Part shown: piece by piece, positions 2,357 through 9,943 of the stretch
Layout of the letters: every line of letters begins with the position of its first letter
Position numbering within the stretch: position 1 is the first letter of the stretch
Virus record (IMG/VR): IMGVR_UViG_2563366917_000002
Strand: one strand, 5' to 3'
DNA: 23,950 nt
Source of the DNA: a virus
Lineage: Duplodnaviria; Heunggongvirae; Uroviricota; Caudoviricetes
Translations under genes and position numbers: made by a program
Notes under the pieces: generated by a model
Databases searched by the model: none
What the model saw: only the letters and a program-made list of their open reading frames with translations
What the model was told of the DNA's origin: nothing

Positions 2357-2472
2357 TGATAATTTTGCTTTTCATGTTCATCGTTCCTTAAAGACGCCGT
2401 TTAACATGCCGATTGCCAGGCTTAAATGAGTCGGTGTGAATCCCTTCAGCGTTACCGTTTCGCGGTGCTTCT

Positions 2473-2655
2473 TCAGTACGCTACGGCAAATGTCATTGAC
2501 GTTTTTGGAAACTGCTGTCTGACTTTTTTGATTTCAGAATTAGCCTGACGGGCAATGCTGCGAAGGGCGTTTTCTTGCTGAGGTGTCACTGAACAAGCCC
2601 CATGTCGGCAAGCATAAGCACACAGAATATGAAGCCCGCTGCCAGAAAAATGCAT
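2473..2655 (-). CDS. small hypothetical protein (lambda orf61-position ORF); frame and start uncertain
   Basis: 60-aa ORF in the ea8.5/orf61 position. The C-terminal half is hydrophilic and protein-like. A competing 27-codon hydrophobic ORF in another frame (2586-2669) is translationally coupled to the upstream gene. Confidence 0.3.
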   Translation of the reverse strand: MHFSGSGLHILCAYACRHGACSVTPQQENALRSIARQANSEIKKVRQQFPKTSMTFAVAY

Positions 2656-3018: not shown

Positions 3019-3689
3019 TGCTCTCCAAATACAAAACCAATTTCAGCCAGTGCTTCGTCCATTTTTTCGATGAACTCCGGCACCATCTCGTCAAAACTCG
3101 CCATGTACTTTTCATCCCGCTCAACCACGACATAATGCAGGCCTTCACGCTTCATTCGTGGGTCATAGTTGGCAAAGTACCAGGCATCTTTTCGTGTCAC
3201 CCACATGCTGTACTGCACCTGGGCCATGTAAGCCGACTTTATGGCCTCGAAACCACCGAGCCGGAACTTCATGAAATCCCGGGAGGTAAACGGGCATTTC
3301 AGCTCAAGGCCATTGCCGTCACTGCATAAACCATCGGGAGAGCAGGCGGTGCGCATACTTTCGTCGCGATAGATGATCGGGGATTCAGTAACATTCACGC
3401 CGGAAGTGAATTCAAACAGGGTTCTGGCGTCGTTCTCGTACTGTTTTCCCCACGCCAGCGCCTTAGCATTAACTTCCGGAGCCACACCGGTGCAAACCTC
3501 AGCCAGCAGGGTGTGGAAGTAGGACATTTTCATGTCAGGCCACTTCTTTCCTGAGCGGGGCTTTGCTATCACGTTGTGAACTTCTGAAGCGGTGATGACG
3601 CCGAGCCGTAATTTGTGCCATGCATCATCCCCCTGTTCGACAGCTCTCACGTCGATCCCGGTACGCTGCAGGATAATGTCCGGTGTCAT
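3009..3689 (-). CDS. exo: lambda exonuclease (Red-alpha), 5'-3' dsDNA exonuclease
   Basis: 226-aa ORF ([40 protein letters not shown]...) near-identical to lambda Exo as recalled. Start overlaps the bet stop. Confidence 0.95.
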
Positions 3690-4992: not shown

Positions 4993-5125
4993 TTTTTGGG
5001 ACTCCTGGCTGATTAAGTATGTCGATAAGGCGTTTCCATCCGTCACGTAATTTACGGGTGATTCGTTCAAGTAAAGATTCGGAAGGGCAGCCAGCAACAG
5101 GCCACCCTGCAATGGCATATTGCAT
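4961..5125 (-). CDS. cIII: cIII, FtsH protease inhibitor
   Basis: Hand translation from the ATG at 5125 gives [54 protein letters not shown] (54 aa), overlapping kil as in lambda. Below the 60-aa cutoff, so absent from the ORF track. Confidence 0.8.
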   Translation of the reverse strand: MQYAIAGWPVAGCPSESLLERITRKLRDGWKRLIDILNQPGVPKNGSNNYGYPD

Positions 5126-5197
5126 GGTGTGCTCCTTATTTATACATAACGAAAAACGCCTCGAGTGAAGCGTAATTGGTATGCGGTAACGCCGCGC

Positions 5198-6760: not shown

Positions 6761-7033
6761 TCATCTCGCCGTCAGTTGTTTTGATTTCCGGTAGCCTGCC
6801 GCGTAAAGAGCTACGTTCGGAAGACAAGTTGAACCTTCATATTTTCTGGTCAACGTTGTCAGAGTTATCACTTCTGCTCTCATTGCTGGTTTGAGCTTGC
6901 ATTGCAAGACCACTCGTGAAGGGGTTGGCCTGTGTAGCTTGTCGGAGCTGATCGCCTCCTGACTTTGCAGATTTGCGCGACGAGCTCTACGGCGAGAAGC
7001 TGCGGTGCCTTTAAATTCTGTTTTTCTGGACAT
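6761..7033 (-). CDS. N: N-type transcription antiterminator, P22 gene-24-like
   Basis: Arginine-rich motif near the N-terminus (GTAASRRRARRA) and C-terminus ...VALYAAGYRKSKQLTAR resembling the P22 N homologue. Start chosen at the internal ATG 7033, which has a GGGAGG Shine-Dalgarno; the track ORF extends to 7105. Confidence 0.7.
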   Translation of the reverse strand: MSRKTEFKGTAASRRRARRANLQSQEAISSDKLHRPTPSRVVLQCKLKPAMRAEVITLTTLTRKYEGSTCLPNVALYAAGYRKSKQLTAR

Positions 7034-7131
7034 GGATTCCTCCCGAATAAACTTTGGCGATGCAATCTCGAAGCTCCTCCTGAGACGGTTGCTTCGGCAT
7101 TGCATCCCACAGCTTATGTGGTTGGGTGATC

Positions 7132-7177
7132 TGGCTTTTCAGCCACGTAGTCGAGAGTCGACGTTGTTTAAAGAGCC
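7132..7177 (-). promoter_or_regulatory. nutL: boxA plus boxB hairpin
   Basis: On the minus-strand RNA: boxA-like GCUCUUUAAACAA (plus 7163-7177), then boxB UGGCU-GAAA-AGCCA (plus 7132-7145), a 5-bp stem with a GAAA loop. Located between pL and N. Confidence 0.5.
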
Positions 7178-7199
7178 TGCCAGTCTGTTCCATTTGGCT

Positions 7200-7300
7200 T
7201 CCAGCGTCCTGCTGACGGTTAAATAGTACGATATGTACTTTACAAGATCAATACAATTTGTTGTAAGTTGGCGTGGTTTTTTATAACGCTTTGTATTTAA
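7200..7300 (-). promoter_or_regulatory. pL / OL region (leftward early promoter and operators)
   Basis: Intergenic AT-rich region upstream of N containing palindromes AGTACGATATGTACT (7225-7239) and TACAATTTGTTGTA (7252-7265). Exact promoter hexamers not resolved. Confidence 0.4.
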
Positions 7301-7469
7301 TAGTGTTGTTTTTTAGCGTGGATGTATTGCCTCGGCGATGTAAGGAGAGATCAGAATTGCGTGGTTTAGTGGGTTGCATCTATTTATTTTTCAATAAATA
7401 TAATTGGTTATGTGTTTTTAGGTGGGCGAACGTGAGGCAAAGAAAACCCGGCGCTGAGGCCGGGTTGTA

Positions 7470-8222
7470 TTATGCTGCAAGTCTCTTAACCCAAGTCTCT
7501 CTTTTGGAGAATGGTAGAACTTGGCTTGATTCATGGAAGAGTAAGGAGAGTTGTTGCATTTGATCACCAATTGCTTCGCTGTCTATAACAACAAATCTGT
7601 TGTTATACTCCTCACTTGAAGCTTTAAGATCAATTAGTTTCCCAAGCAATGAGTAAGCACTATTCCAGCTTCCTCCGTGTTTCACGCTTGATGTAAAAAC
7701 GTATTTAGGTATGTCGGTTTTTATTGTTACAGGGACGGTAATTTGATGTCCACTCAAGCCATATACGTTTTCACGAAGAGAAAGTGCGTCTCTAAGCTCT
7801 GTGTGATATAGATAATCAATAACCATACTTTCAAACTTTTCAGCTTGAACTGGCTGATACCAGTCTAACGACAAAGTTGATGCGAGTATACCAGCTCTAA
7901 TTATGTTCGATGTAATCGCACCGACATCCTTTTCTGTTGCCCAAGCAATGATTTCTCCTCGAGCATTGAGTTCTGCGCCTTCTTTAAGCAGTAATTGTCG
8001 TATCTCATCAAGTCGTTTTTTGGTAAGCGAGATCCCTCTTGCCTCCATATTCATTAAGGCATCGCATCTGTCACTAACTAAATACCTACCATTGACTTCA
8101 CGGATAAAGGCACCGACATGCTCTCCATCATCACAGTAAGTGAATGGACTGATAATTCTCAAGGTCTTGCCTATTGGATGGCATTCGAAACCTAGTTGTG
8201 AGATCACTGTTGAGCACATCAT
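7470..8222 (-). CDS. unknown protein, gene 2 of a two-gene module at the rexAB-equivalent locus
   Basis: 250-aa ORF. Its ATG overlaps the upstream gene's stop (ATGA). By eye the DNA is AT-richer than flanking phage genes. No Walker A, HEPN or obvious nuclease motif recognised. Confidence 0.6.
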   Translation of the reverse strand: MMCSTVISQLGFECHPIGKTLRIISPFTYCDDGEHVGAFIREVNGRYLVSDRCDALMNMEARGISLTKKRLDEIRQLLLKEGAELNARGEIIAWATEKDVGAITSNIIRAGILASTLSLDWYQPVQAEKFESMVIDYLYHTELRDALSLRENVYGLSGHQITVPVTIKTDIPKYVFTSSVKHGGSWNSAYSLLGKLIDLKASSEEYNNRFVVIDSEAIGDQMQQLSLLFHESSQVLPFSKRETWVKRLAA

Positions 8223-8776
8223 ATTCCAAACCCCATTTGCCCCGACTCATCTTCAAGCGGTAAAGGTATTCTCCCAGAGTAAGTTATGTTCAGATGTTTA
8301 CAGAAGTAATTCCAATACCCTACCAGGTCATCTGGGTTTATGTCATCTTCGATTGGAAACGCTATTCTATCACTATAGTATCCAGCTTCTTCATAGTATA
8401 CATGGTAGTGAGCACCGTAAATGATATCTTGGTACTTCGGATGATCGACCTTGTAACTATTCGTGTGTTTGTCAAAGTGATAGGTATCTACCGCGAAAAC
8501 CCTCTTGTTATGATAGAAAGCAATAATATTTATTTTAGGGTAAGAAATCGGGTCATCAGGTTCTGAATCCTGATCTGGTTTCCATTTCAGTTCAAACTTT
8601 AGCCCTTGTATAGGTATACAATCCTCATCCAAGGGGATGATATGGGCTTGTAGCCACATATCAGAGCGACTTGGTTTCTGTTTCCATTTAACGCCAGAAA
8701 AGTTAACTATTTTTTTACAATAAAGTACTTTATCAACTTCTACTTGGCTTGGCTGATAATCATCTATTTTTGCCAA
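8219..8776 (-). CDS. unknown protein, gene 1 of a two-gene module at the rexAB-equivalent locus
   Basis: 185-aa ORF beginning 39 nt after the cI stop. The first in-frame start is TTG at 8776, with a GGCGG-like Shine-Dalgarno upstream; the frame is closed upstream by TAA. Rich in Tyr/His/Asp; no recognised family. Confidence 0.55.
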   Translation of the reverse strand: MAKIDDYQPSQVEVDKVLYCKKIVNFSGVKWKQKPSRSDMWLQAHIIPLDEDCIPIQGLKFELKWKPDQDSEPDDPISYPKINIIAFYHNKRVFAVDTYHFDKHTNSYKVDHPKYQDIIYGAHYHVYYEEAGYYSDRIAFPIEDDINPDDLVGYWNYFCKHLNITYSGRIPLPLEDESGQMGFGI

Positions 8777-8815: not shown

Positions 8816-9475
8816 TCACCCAAACGTCTCTTCAGGCCATTGGCTGGCGATAACTTTCCCCACAACGGAACAACTCTCATTGCATGGGATCATTGGGTAT
8901 TGTGGGTTTAGTGGCTGTAGAAACACCTGACCGCTATCCCTGATCAGTTTCTTGAAGGTAAATTCATCACCACCAAGTCTGGCTATGCAGAAATCGCCGG
9001 GCTCAACAGCTTGCTCAGGGTCAACCAGAATTAACATCCCGTCAGGAAAGCTGGGTTTGGAACCTGTTGGTGCGGTCATTGAGTTACCTTCAACCTCAAG
9101 CCAGAATGCAGAGTCACTGGCTTTTTTGGTTGTGCTTACCAATCTCTCCGCATCGCCTTTGGTAAAGGTTCTGAGTTCTGGAGAGAACATCCCAGCCTGA
9201 ACATGAGAAAAAACAGGGTACTCATATTGTTTTTTAACTGGGGCCGATGAGTATTCGCCAACAGGTGAAAATGTCCCGTCGTGGTTGAATGATATGTTAT
9301 CAATACCAAGGTATTTAAACACCACACCAATATCACTAAGAGATGGATGACGAGATCCGCGCAACCAGTGTCCAATCCCACCCTGCGTCATACCTAGCTC
9401 TTCGGCTAACTTCTCTTGAGTTATGCCGAGCTCTTTCATTCTGGATCTAGCCAGTTCATACCATTTCATTTTCAT
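8816..9475 (-). CDS. cI: cI repressor: lambda-identical C-terminal dimerisation/autocleavage domain with a non-lambda N-terminal HTH domain
   Basis: From ...[50 protein letters not shown]... to the end it matches lambda cI (S24 peptidase-like domain). The N-terminal ~90 aa ([44 protein letters not shown]...) is a different HTH. Start taken at 9475/9469; the track ORF extends to 9517. Confidence 0.9.
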
Positions 9476-9586
9476 GTCCTTATTATTACGCTCTGTACTG
9501 GAACCATCCATGCACAATGTGTATTTTTACTTGTATTCGCAAAGTACATATTGTATTTTTTTATTCGTGTTTACTATGGAGGGCAT
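9476..9586. promoter_or_regulatory. OR / pRM / pR region between divergent cI and cro
   Basis: 111-bp AT-rich intergenic region with GTAC/TGTA-containing partial palindromes (e.g. AGTACATATTGTAT at 9543-9556) resembling the OL palindrome at 7225-7239. Confidence 0.55.
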
Positions 9587-9802: not shown

Positions 9803-9812
9803 TAAGCGGATC

Positions 9813-9858
9813 CGCTCTTTGTAACAACGGACATTCGTCCTACGTCGCTGAAAAGCGA
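9813..9858 (+). promoter_or_regulatory. nutR: boxA plus boxB hairpin
   Basis: boxA-like CGCTCTTTGTAACAA (9813-9827), then boxB UCGCU-GAAA-AGCGA (9845-9858), the same 5-bp stem and GAAA loop as the nutL candidate. Confidence 0.5.
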
Positions 9859-9943
9859 GTTCCAAGATATCTGACCAACTAAGGCCATATGCGTTTCCAC
9901 GCATACCTTTCAACTAACTATTCACTATTGGAAATCTTAAGAA

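What the first reader, a model, noticed from the sequence alone, without database searches (positions are those of the whole stretch)
6761..7177. P22-type N in an otherwise lambda-like early region, with predicted nut sites using a GAAA-loop boxB
The antiterminator has an arginine-rich motif and a P22 gene-24-like C-terminus, not lambda N. Matching candidate nutL (boxB UGGCU-GAAA-AGCCA at 7132-7145) and nutR (boxB UCGCU-GAAA-AGCGA at 9845-9858) each follow a boxA-like element. Both boxB hairpins have the same 5-bp stem and GAAA loop, as expected for co-evolved sites.
Basis: partly seen in the sequence, partly recalled or inferred. Interest (0 to 1): 0.4.

Follow-up and report, generated by a model that had tools for sequence, protein, structure and literature searches.

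The report
Known phage N antiterminator, tetraloop nut sites
This is the ordinary early antitermination switch of a lambda-like E. coli phage (N protein plus its two RNA landing sites), already annotated in the Shiga-toxin phage VT2-Sakai. The one unusual detail is that its RNA hairpins carry a true four-base GNRA loop, matched by changes in the protein's RNA-binding helix.

Summary
Window 6761-7033 (-) encodes a 90-aa N antiterminator (Pfam N_peptide, E=1.5e-32). nutL (7177-7132, -) and nutR (9813-9858, +) each consist of boxA, a spacer hairpin, UACG and a 5-bp boxB with a GAAA loop.

It is not new. The DNA is 100% identical to E. coli phages PhiR63_2, ev017 and ev207. N is 98.9% identical to VT2-Sakai N, and that GenBank record already marks the same sequences as putative nutL and nutR.

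"P22-type" is only partly right:
- The C-terminus is P22/H-19B-like.
- The closest relative is the H-19B/HK97 N, with a 37-aa internal gap in the window protein.
- The arginine-rich helix resembles lambda's (9/19) more than P22's (6/19).
- P22 and H-19B boxB loops are GACAA, not GAAA.

Across about 500 loci, tetraloop boxBs (GAAA, once GCAA) occur only with ARMs of the form RRRxRRAxLQ[S/N]. Pentaloops occur only with ARMs that keep the basic and hydrophobic residues which contact the looped-out C in the P22 NMR structure. nutL and nutR agree in loop type in 182 of 183 loci, and the boxB and spacer stems covary.

Verdict: a real, ordinary, already annotated system, with a modest and possibly undescribed recognition variant.

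In passing: satellite islands carry arrays of nut sites of several specificities upstream of alpA.

The parts
6761..7033 (-). N antiterminator gene, 90 aa plus stop (the longer ORF to 7105 is an in-frame upstream extension)
   Evidence: Pfam PF25694 N_peptide, E=1.5e-32, 112.5 bits against a cut-off of 27.9. GGGAGGA lies 6 nt upstream of the ATG. 100% identical to N of phages ev207 and ev017, 98.9% to VT2-Sakai N. Annotated as a 90-aa N in PhiR63_2 and VT2-Sakai.
6953..7009 (-). Coding region of the arginine-rich motif, residues 9-27 (GTAASRRRARRANLQSQEA); the inferred boxB-binding helix
   Evidence: Alignment with the P22, H-19B-type and lambda ARMs. The ARM type co-occurs strictly with tetraloop boxB.
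6764..6823 (-). C-terminal 20 residues LPNVALYAAGYRKSKQLTAR, shared with P22 gp24 and H-19B-type N; the inferred RNA-polymerase-binding end
   Evidence: Invariant block in alignments A1 and A2. In H-19B N, deleting residues 101-127 abolishes action at distal terminators (PMC3526286).
7040..7125 (-). N leader: long imperfect hairpin between nutL and the N start codon
   Evidence: The fold of 7025-7215 (-) gives -68.3 kcal/mol, z=-3.1. The analogy with the lambda N-leader/RNase III structure comes from my own knowledge and was not tested.
7132..7145 (-). nutL boxB: UGGCU-GAAA-AGCCA
   Evidence: Identical sequence lies inside the VT2-Sakai feature 'putative N-utilization leftward'. Present upstream of every 90-aa N examined.
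7146..7149 (-). nutL invariant linker UACG between the spacer hairpin and boxB
   Evidence: Conserved (U/C)ACG (C in one core), always exactly 4 nt, in all 24 distinct nut cores.
7150..7162 (-). nutL spacer hairpin GUCGA-CUC-UCGAC
   Evidence: Folds at -4.9 kcal/mol; 0 of 300 shuffles do as well. The structure is kept with at least 7 unrelated stem sequences across loci.
7169..7177 (-). nutL boxA GGCUCUUUA (rrn-type CUUUA)
   Evidence: Consensus boxA sequences (rrn UGCUCUUUA, lambda CGCUCUUA) from PMC2724277.
7223..7251 (-). Putative pL promoter (TTGATC-17-TACTAT) overlapping operators
   Evidence: Transferred by gapless alignment from the VT2-Sakai annotation 'putative major leftward promoter'. 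The sequence was read.
9813..9821 (+). nutR boxA CGCUCUUUG, 11 nt after the cro stop codon
   Evidence: Lies inside the VT2-Sakai feature 'putative N-utilization rightward'.
9829..9840 (+). nutR spacer hairpin GGAC-AUUC-GUCC
   Evidence: Folds at -5.2 kcal/mol; 0 of 300 shuffles do as well. The same hairpin is in H-19B-type nutR, where two hairpins were footprinted (PMC3526286).
9841..9844 (+). nutR linker UACG
9845..9858 (+). nutR boxB: UCGCU-GAAA-AGCGA
   Evidence: It differs from H-19B-type nutR boxB (UCGCU-GACAA-AGCGA) only by lacking the loop C.

Best explanation
This is the N/nut processive antitermination module of a lambdoid E. coli phage. The window is about 100% identical to phage PhiR63_2, and the N/nut type is that of Stx phage VT2-Sakai.

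Proposed mechanism:
1. Transcripts from pL and pR carry nutL and nutR.
2. Each nut RNA has a boxA (NusB/NusE site), a sequence-variable spacer hairpin, a fixed UACG linker, and a boxB hairpin closed by U-A with a genuine GNRA tetraloop (GAAA).
3. The N-terminal arginine-rich helix of the 90-aa N (residues about 9-27) binds boxB. The middle of N recruits NusA. The P22-like C-terminus engages RNA polymerase.
4. Polymerase then reads through the early terminators into the recombination/cIII genes on the left and the cII-O-P-nin-Q genes on the right.

Relative to P22 and H-19B boxB (GACAA, third base looped out) and lambda boxB (GAAAA/GAAGA, fourth base looped out), this class has no looped-out base. 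Its ARM correspondingly lacks the residues that hold that base in P22.

Shown here: the gene, its family membership, the sites, their folds, stem covariation, and the ARM-loop association.

Inferred, not tested: binding, Nus-factor use and antitermination.
For: Gene and family:
- Pfam N_peptide, E=1.5e-32.
- 98.9-100% identity to annotated N proteins.
- Expected position as the first pL gene between sieB and the immunity region, with cI, cro, cII, O and P to the right.

Sites:
- Identical sequences are annotated as putative nutL and nutR in AP000422.
- The hairpins fold.

base-pair covariation (boxB):
- The two outer pairs covary (UA/CG/AU and GC/CG/AU/UG). The three inner pairs and the loop are invariant. 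All 40 cells pair; 0 of 500 shuffles reach the observed score.
- A scan that left the two outer positions free found 100 of 100 hits in an N context complementary, against 20 of 52 elsewhere.

Loop agreement and ARM-loop association:
- nutL and nutR carry the same loop type in 182 of 183 loci that hold two sites.
- In loci found by boxB pattern, 22 distinct ARM variants with A/S at position 11 and S/N at position 15 go with the tetraloop (GAAA, once GCAA). 20 variants with K/R at 11 and I/L/M at 15 go with GACAA.
- The partition also holds in 80 loci found by N protein similarity alone.

Structural rationale:
- In the P22 N-boxB NMR structure 1A4T, the looped-out C contacts His7, Arg11 and an isoleucine of the peptide (PMC11480772, Fig. 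1 legend and text; PMC12550061). I take this to be Ile15, the peptide's only Ile.
- The window N has Arg, Ala and Ser at those positions.

Spacer hairpin:
- All 24 distinct nut cores form a 4-6 bp hairpin exactly 4 nt before boxB, with at least 7 unrelated stem sequences.
- Two hairpins were footprinted in H-19B nutR (PMC3526286).
Against: - There are no binding or antitermination data for this N/nut type. None turned up in the held literature, and none can be produced here.
- The ARM-loop association rests on few independent evolutionary events. The tetraloop ARMs look like one lineage, and the pentaloop ARMs like two or three.
- The U-A closing pair and the loop never vary, so sequence alone cannot exclude a 4-bp stem with a UGAAAA hexaloop.
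- The minimum-energy fold of both 56-nt nut RNAs pairs boxA with the 3' half of boxB instead of forming boxB. The boxB fold must therefore win co-transcriptionally or on N binding.
- The ARM lacks the Trp that stacks on the loop in lambda N.
- One locus with a tetraloop-type N (L430) has no recognisable nutL, apparently after a rearrangement.
Confidence: 0.85

Rival explanations
1. The sites are true nut sites, but the missing loop base is functionally neutral. On this reading N proteins of this family recognise any GNRA-like fold, so the tetraloop class cross-reacts with H-19B and P22 systems. The ARM differences would then reflect shared ancestry, not co-adaptation.
For: - The tetraloop ARMs form one related group, so the association could reflect a single event.
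- The loop-proximal stem GCU...AGC, the UACG linker and even the nutR spacer hairpin are identical between this class and H-19B-type sites.
- Lambda N tolerates many GNRNA variants (PMC12027372).
Against: - No exceptions were found. Among about 500 loci no tetraloop sits next to a pentaloop-type ARM or the reverse, whether loci were found by RNA pattern or by protein.
- nutL and nutR switch together in 182 of 183 loci.
- ARMs with the same first half (SSAARRR...) go with GACAA when followed by ERLKAQAIA and with GAAA when followed by ARRAELQSQ.
- The changed residues are those that contact the looped-out C in 1A4T.
- Satellite islands carry tetraloop and pentaloop units side by side, which would be redundant if the two were equivalent.
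Confidence: 0.25
2. N recognises a different element of the nut RNA, such as the spacer hairpin or the boxA:boxB alternative helix, and the GAAA hairpin is only a structural bystander.
For: - The spacer hairpin is as well conserved in structure as boxB.
- The minimum-energy fold of both nut RNAs is an alternative helix that pairs boxA with the 3' half of boxB.
- The title of Neely & Friedman 2000 (PMID 11123680; seen in a reference list) speaks of alternative NUT RNA structures in H-19B.
Against: - The spacer hairpin differs completely in sequence between nutL and nutR of the same phage (GUCGA-CUC-UCGAC versus GGAC-AUUC-GUCC). It cannot be a shared sequence-specific target.
- The boxB loop and its three closing pairs are the only hairpin elements common to both sites.
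- In H-19B, N plus NusA/NusG protects the boxB loop G, and ARM mutants are defective (PMC3526286).
Confidence: 0.05
3. The hairpins are chance inverted repeats or terminator stems, unrelated to N.
For: The simple terminator scan flags similar short GC hairpins in related loci. Two other GAAA hairpins in the window do look like chance.
Against: - Each lies at the canonical distance after pL and after cro.
- Each is preceded by a boxA.
- Neither is followed by a T-run.
- Stems covary.
- The hairpin is present upstream of every N of this class.
- The sites are annotated as nut in VT2-Sakai.
Confidence: 0.02

Closest known systems
N and putative nutL/nutR of Stx2 phage VT2-Sakai (Sp5; GenBank AP000422/NC_000902), and of phages ev017, ev207 and PhiR63_2
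   Same: N is 98.9-100% identical. The nutL core and nutR through boxB are identical in sequence and sit at the same positions. The VT2-Sakai record marks them as 'putative N-utilization leftward/rightward'.
   Different: Nothing of substance. The immunity region (cI, operators and the genes between N and cI) differs, as is usual for lambdoid mosaics.
H-19B / 933W / HK97 / HK106-type N and nut sites
   Same: - Same N-terminal leader (M[ST]R[KR]TxFKG), the same EAISSxxLHRPTxSR middle motif and the same C-terminus.
- Same two-hairpin nut architecture: spacer hairpin, UACG, boxB.
- The nutR spacer hairpin GGAC-AUUC-GUCC is identical.
- Two hairpins were footprinted, and ARM and C-terminal domain functions were shown experimentally for H-19B (PMC3526286).
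   Different: - H-19B-type N is 127 aa; the window N lacks about 37 internal residues.
- The H-19B ARM continues RRRERLKAKALANG, against RRRARRANLQSQ here.
- H-19B boxB is the GACAA pentaloop, against GAAA here.
- H-19B-type nutL has a degenerate boxA (CGCACUACU), whereas the window nutL has a near-consensus boxA.
Phage P22 gene 24 protein and boxB (NMR structure 1A4T)
   Same: - Same Pfam family.
- Same C-terminal 20 residues.
- Same loop-proximal stem GCU...AGC and U-A closing pair.
- The loop is GA(C)AA, i.e. identical apart from the looped-out C.
   Different: - The P22 loop is a pentaloop with its third base extruded and held by His7, Arg11 and Ile15; here those positions are Arg, Ala and Ser and the base is absent.
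- P22 nut sites have a short spacer without the hairpin and UACG.
Phage lambda N and boxB
   Same: - The ARM core is strikingly similar: lambda AQTRRRERRAEKQAQ against window AASRRRARRANLQSQ, 9/19 identical.
- GNRA-type fold with a U-A closing pair (PMC12027372).
- Same genome position and boxA-spacer-boxB logic.
   Different: - Lambda N belongs to Pfam N36 and falls below threshold for N_peptide.
- It has Trp18, which is Glu here.
- It has a different C-terminus.
- Its boxB is a pentaloop with the fourth base extruded.
- Its spacer has no hairpin.

Membership tests
Lambdoid N/nut processive antitermination system | [quoted passage not shown] | tested here: met
   PF25694 N_peptide, 112.5 bits against a cut-off of 27.9. 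ARM GTAASRRRARRANLQ at residues 9-23.
Lambdoid N/nut processive antitermination system | N is the first gene of the leftward early operon, next to the immunity region | tested here: met
   Gene order is sieB, N, (two ORFs), cI, cro, cII, O, P. pL and its operators are placed by homology to VT2-Sakai.
Lambdoid N/nut processive antitermination system | Two nut sites, one on each early transcript, each boxA followed by a boxB hairpin, with matching boxB loops | tested here: met
   nutL 7177-7132 (-) and nutR 9813-9858 (+). Folds. Loop type agrees between nutL and nutR in 182 of 183 loci.
Lambdoid N/nut processive antitermination system | boxB stem maintained by compensatory change; loop conserved | tested here: met
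Lambdoid N/nut processive antitermination system | N binds boxB RNA and, with the Nus factors, suppresses downstream terminators | not testable with these tools
   Needs binding and reporter assays. Shown only for relatives (H-19B, PMC3526286; P22 and lambda structures).
VT2-Sakai-type N/nut (exact type) | N at least 95% identical, with identical nutL and nutR sequences | tested here: met
   N 98.9% identical; nutL core and nutR through boxB identical.
P22 gene-24-type N-boxB pair (third loop base extruded) | boxB pentaloop GACAA with a looped-out C | tested here: not met
   The loop is GAAA at both sites. P22 nutL is GCGCU-GACAA-AGCGC.
P22 gene-24-type N-boxB pair (third loop base extruded) | ARM residues that hold the looped-out C (His7, Arg11, Ile15 in peptide numbering) | tested here: not met
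   The window has Arg, Ala and Ser at these positions. Contacts from PMC11480772 and PMC12550061.
P22 gene-24-type N-boxB pair (third loop base extruded) | C-terminal LPxVALYAAGxRKSKQxTAR block | tested here: met
H-19B/HK97-type N/nut | nut site with a second hairpin in the boxA-boxB spacer | tested here: met
   H-19B nutR has two hairpins (PMC3526286).
H-19B/HK97-type N/nut | 127-aa N with ARM RSRRRERLKAKALANG and a GACAA boxB | tested here: not met
   The window N is 90 aa, its ARM is RRRARRANLQSQ, and its loop is GAAA.
Lambda N (Pfam N36) | Match to the N36 profile; Trp18 stacking residue; GNRNA pentaloop | tested here: not met
   No N36 hit at E up to 1. Glu sits at the Trp18 position. The loop is a tetraloop.

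The most novel reading that the evidence does not exclude
The VT2-Sakai-type N/nut pairs would be a third natural mode of N-boxB recognition. In it boxB is a pre-formed canonical GNRA tetraloop (GAAA or GCAA) with no extruded base. It would be read by a lambda-like ARM that has lost both the Trp stack of lambda and the pocket for the looped-out C of P22. The extruded base in lambda has been linked to NusA recognition (my recollection of Chattopadhyay 1995 and Legault 1998; not checked here). If so, this class would have to recruit NusA differently, perhaps through the conserved spacer hairpin and UACG linker. The class would then be a specificity group of its own, distinct enough that satellite islands carry a dedicated tetraloop unit beside P22-, H-19B- and lambda-type units in their nut arrays.
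Probability: 0.5. Interest if true: 0.45.

Novelty: already known. Interest (0 to 1): 0.3.

Why it matters
As a gene-finding result it adds nothing. The same N and nut sites are in GenBank records of Stx phages and lambda-like coliphages.

The comparative result is of modest interest to people who use N-boxB as a model of peptide-RNA recognition, or as a tethering tool. It describes a natural ARM/GNRA-tetraloop pair whose specificity-determining residues can be read from covariation. That gives a directly testable prediction for switching recognition between a loop with no extruded base and one with the third base extruded.

This N type drives early transcription, and therefore ultimately Q and Stx2 expression, in VT2-Sakai-like phages of E. 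coli O157:H7.

Tried and rejected
- The search for related loci on an alignment that included lambda N failed, because no block was conserved enough.
- The genome-contig scan gave only 4 loci.
- The first viral-contig scan returned only N proteins at least 98% identical, so it gave no diversity. Diversity came from DNA-pattern scans and from a second protein query.
- My first hairpin regular expression missed the sites and was rewritten.
- MAFFT aligned the variable spacer hairpins and the 4-nt versus 5-nt loops badly (A3). I analysed spacers per sequence with ViennaRNA and boxB on a gap-free alignment.
- A PDB sequence search with N found nothing; the N peptides there fall below the length limit.
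- Rfam has no nut or boxB family. The only hit in the window is the cIII thermoregulator.
- Literature searches for VT2-Sakai, Stx2 nut sites or natural tetraloop boxB found no description.
- Neely & Friedman 2000, Thapar 2014 and Cilley & Williamson 2003 are not held.
- I considered whether HK97 N is the same type, as one GenBank note says. HK97 (L240) has the 127-aa N and GACAA sites, so it is not.
- I considered the extra GAAA hairpins at 3523-3536 and 7384-7397 as additional nut sites and rejected them. They have no boxA; one lies in coding sequence and the other is AT-only.
- The EcCIMP1 record OR778291 is not in the collections.
Full report
**What is there**

The minus strand of 6761-7033 encodes a 90-aa protein, MSRKTEFKGTAASRRRARRANLQSQEAISS...LPNVALYAAGYRKSKQLTAR. 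Its ATG sits 6 nt after GGGAGGA. It matches Pfam PF25694 (N_peptide) at E=1.5e-32 over its whole length. The longer 114-aa ORF running to 7105 is an upstream in-frame extension. The annotators of VT2-Sakai and PhiR63_2 use the 90-aa start.

Upstream on the same strand lies nutL:
- boxA GGCUCUUUA (7177-7169)
- AACAAC
- a spacer hairpin GUCGA-CUC-UCGAC (7162-7150)
- UACG (7149-7146)
- boxB UGGCU-GAAA-AGCCA (7145-7132)

nutR lies on the plus strand, 11 nt after the cro stop codon:
- boxA CGCUCUUUG (9813-9821)
- a spacer hairpin GGAC-AUUC-GUCC (9829-9840)
- UACG (9841-9844)
- boxB UCGCU-GAAA-AGCGA (9845-9858)

The isolated boxB hairpins fold as 5 bp plus a tetraloop (-7.1 and -6.5 kcal/mol; z -3.4 and -2.7). 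Perfect 5-bp/GAAA hairpins number 4 in the window, against 0.21 expected from shuffles. The two others look like chance.

**Already known**

The 600 bases around N are 100% identical to E. coli phages ev207, ev017, PhiR57_1 and PhiR63_2. The whole window matches PhiR63_2 at 100% over 90% of its length. N is 98.9% identical to N of Stx2 phage VT2-Sakai. The VT2-Sakai record AP000422 carries features named "putative N-utilization leftward" and "rightward". These cover the same nutL core and nutR sequences through boxB (the features stop inside the boxB loop), together with pL, the operators and a putative rho-dependent tR1.

The surroundings are ordinary lambdoid:
- cIII with its Rfam thermoregulator
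- SieB, a cI with a Peptidase_S24 domain, a cro with an HTH domain, CII, O and lambda P

**Is it P22-type?**

Only in part.
- P22 gp24, the H-19B/HK106-type N and the window N all belong to PF25694. Lambda N belongs to N36 and is sub-threshold for N_peptide.
- By BLASTP the window N is closest to the 127-aa H-19B/HK97/HK106 type (42% identity, E=2e-23, with one 37-residue gap in the window protein). P22 gp24 follows (40%, 3e-13) and lambda N is last (33% over the N-terminal 60 residues, 5e-4).
- The last 20 residues are shared with P22 and H-19B-type N.
- The ARM itself is most like lambda's. TAASRRRARRANLQSQEAI against lambda DAQTRRRERRAEKQAQWKA gives 9/19 identical. Against P22 NAKTRRHERRRKLAIERDT it gives 6/19.

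**The boxB differs from that of its relatives by one base**

P22 nutL is GCGCU-GACAA-AGCGC. HK106, whose record is annotated with boxA and boxB, has GCGCU-GACAA-AGCGC at nutL and UCGCU-GACAA-AGCGA at nutR. The window nutR is the HK106 nutR minus the loop C, with the same spacer hairpin. That prompted a test of whether protein and RNA change together.

**Co-variation of ARM and loop**

I collected about 500 loci in two ways:
- IMG/VR loci found by DNA pattern: TACGNNGCTGAAAAGCNNG, TACGNNGCTGACAAAGC and GCGCTGACAAAGCGC
- IMG/VR loci found by protein similarity

I located N genes with an HMM and read the hairpin upstream of each. The results:
- Every ARM of the form [ST][AS][ASV][SAG]RRR[AED][RQH]R[AS]x[LVM]Q[SND] goes with a tetraloop. 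That is 22 distinct variants in the pattern-found loci plus further variants in the protein-found loci. These proteins are 90, 93, 108, 111, 115, 120, 121, 124, 126 or 127 aa long and carry several different C-termini. The loop is GAAA, and once GCAA, which is still GNRA.
- Every ARM of the P22 type (NAKTRRHERRRKLAIER), the related NAKSRRHARRRAVAMDR type, or the H-19B type (RRRERLKAKALANG, RRRERLKAQAIA) goes with a pentaloop. The loop is GACAA, or GUCAA in one subtype.
- No cross-combination was found in either kind of sample.
- ARMs that share their first half (SSAARRR) go with GACAA or GAAA according to their second half.
- nutL and nutR of a locus carry the same loop type in 182 of 183 cases.

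In the P22 N-boxB NMR structure (1A4T) the looped-out C contacts His7, Arg11 and an isoleucine of the peptide (PMC11480772, Fig. 1 legend and text; PMC12550061). I take this to be Ile15, the peptide's only Ile. Positions 11 and 15 are K/R and I/L/M in all pentaloop ARMs, and A/S and S/N in all tetraloop ARMs. One mis-anchored outlier was ignored.

This fits co-adaptation: losing the extruded base goes with losing its pocket. The caveat is that the tetraloop ARMs look like one lineage, so the number of independent events is small.

**RNA structure evidence**

On eight distinct tetraloop boxBs the two outer pairs covary (UA/CG/AU and GC/CG/AU/UG). The three inner pairs G-C, C-G, U-A and the loop are invariant. 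All 40 cells pair, and 0 of 500 shuffles reach the observed covariation score.

In the scan that left the outer two positions free, 100 of 100 hits in an N context were complementary, against 20 of 52 elsewhere. Most of those 20 are nutR sites on contigs that lack N.

The spacer hairpin is also real. All 24 distinct nut cores fold into a 4-6 bp hairpin ending exactly 4 nt (U/C-ACG) before boxB. At least 7 unrelated stem sequences occur: GGAC, GGCC, GUCGA, GGUGA, GAUUCA, GAAGAU and GAUUGC. Each folds better than 98-100% of shuffles. This is the two-hairpin nut architecture footprinted for H-19B nutR, where N plus NusA/NusG protect the spacer and the boxB loop G (PMC3526286).

The minimum-energy fold of both 56-nt nut RNAs instead pairs boxA (GCUCUUU) with the 3' half of boxB (AAAAGC). 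Whether this alternative matters is unknown. The title of Neely & Friedman 2000 refers to alternative NUT RNA structures in H-19B, but the paper is not held.

**Mechanism**

The best-supported reading is the classical one.
1. NusB/NusE bind boxA. The nutL boxA has the rrn-type CUUUA (consensus from PMC2724277).
2. N binds boxB through its ARM as a bent helix on a GNRA fold with a U-A closing pair. Those requirements are documented for lambda in PMC12027372.
3. NusA binds the spacer region and the middle of N.
4. The C-terminus of N binds RNA polymerase.

All four steps are inferred from homology. What is specific to this class is that the GNRA fold needs no extruded base.

**Verdict**

The feature is real, correctly located and largely correctly interpreted. 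It is an ordinary, already annotated component of a known phage type. The tetraloop/ARM pairing is a tidy and testable refinement. I could not find it described, but I cannot show that it is unpublished.

**Seen in passing**

One locus retrieved by the boxB scans (L143) is not a phage immunity region. It lies just downstream of an integrase and carries, on one strand within about 400 nt, a series of nut-like units of different specificities:
- a tetraloop unit with spacer hairpin and UACG
- a P22-type GCGCUGACAAAGCGC
- an H-19B-type nutL copy
- the lambda nutR boxB GCCCUGAAAAAGGGC
- hairpins with CUAAUA and CGAAAU loops

Most of these units have their own boxA-like element.

In complete E. coli genomes, 32 of 5426 hold at least 80% of this array. 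In strain A20 it lies in an island at tRNA-Thr. It sits between int and a 67-aa HTH (AlpA-like) gene, and is followed by a 13-bp terminator-like hairpin. Downstream come AntA/AntB, Ash, Icd-like and DUF927 primase genes, which is the layout of a phage-inducible chromosomal island. A shorter array with a different set of units occurs in another strain.

Published work shows that alpA of E. coli PICIs is switched on by helper phages and not by SOS. In 2018 the inducer was described as "under study" (PMC6092414). In 2025 a reporter spanning -449 to +50 of alpA was reported to respond to a helper phage, with no mechanism given (PMC11773190).

An obvious hypothesis follows: these satellites sense the N protein of any lambdoid helper through a multi-specificity nut array and read through into alpA. 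I did not test this beyond reading the sequence.

Noticed in passing
L143 1510-1900 (+); L414 (E. coli A20, NZ_CP028755) 9020-9500 (+); L415 (NZ_CP022912) 2405-2650 (+): Satellite (PICI-like) islands carry a same-strand array of nut-like units of different specificities between int and a 67-aa AlpA-like HTH gene. The units are:
- a tetraloop unit with spacer hairpin and UACG
- the P22-type GCGCUGACAAAGCGC
- an H-19B-type nutL copy
- the lambda boxB GCCCUGAAAAAGGGC
- hairpins with CUAAUA and CGAAAU loops

Most units have a boxA-like element. The array is followed by a 13-bp terminator-like hairpin. Its composition varies between islands. 32 of 5426 complete E. coli genomes hold at least 80% of the long version.

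Hypothesis: the satellite uses the N protein of any lambdoid helper to antiterminate into alpA. The helper-dependent inducer of alpA was reported as unknown in PMC6092414. I found no paper linking PICIs with nut or boxB.
   Followed up: partly
window 7470-8222 (-) and 8219-8776 (-): Two overlapping ORFs (250 and 185 aa) sit between N and cI, the position rexAB holds in lambda, upstream of a strong terminator hairpin at 7466-7445. They match the PADLOC candidate defence system PDC-M24: the B component at E=4.7e-10 and the A component weakly at 4.8e-4. They also match Pfam DUF1828 (above its cut-off) and DUF6978 (22.0 bits, below its 29.6-bit cut-off). This is probably a prophage-encoded defence cassette.
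   Followed up: partly
window 7025-7215 (-): The pL leader folds into a long imperfect hairpin (about 7125-7040) between nutL and the N start. The 5' end of the transcript pairs across the N start codon (-68.3 kcal/mol, z=-3.1). This recalls the lambda N-leader/RNase III structure that couples N translation to nutL, a comparison drawn from my own knowledge.
   Followed up: no
window 7125-7180 (-) and 9810-9865 (+): In both nut RNAs the minimum-energy fold pairs boxA (GCUCUUU) with the loop and 3' arm of boxB (AAAAGC), enclosing the spacer hairpin. This competes with the boxB fold at nearly equal energy.
   Followed up: no
L193, L162, L102 (N genes found): The tetraloop-type ARM is found joined to quite different C-termini. 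These include a lambda-like one (…EYHKQIL…GKSIPLI) and a variant …YALGLQKRKKVTAR. The RNA-binding and polymerase-binding modules of N therefore reassort independently.
   Followed up: no
L452, L457, L461 and L470 (upstream of N); L090 1793: Further boxB variants:
- GCUC-C-GUCAA-C-GAGC, a pentaloop GUCAA flanked by a C·C mismatch as in P22 nutR, with ARM TSRARRRERLKAKALANG
- GCGCU-GACAA-GGCGC, with a U·G closing pair
- an N with ARM DDNARNRRRARRQAQREQ next to CCCGC-CGAAAU-GCGGG
   Followed up: no
window 5080-5138 (-): Rfam Lambda_thermo (cIII thermoregulator), 88.5 bits against a gathering score of 50.
   Followed up: no
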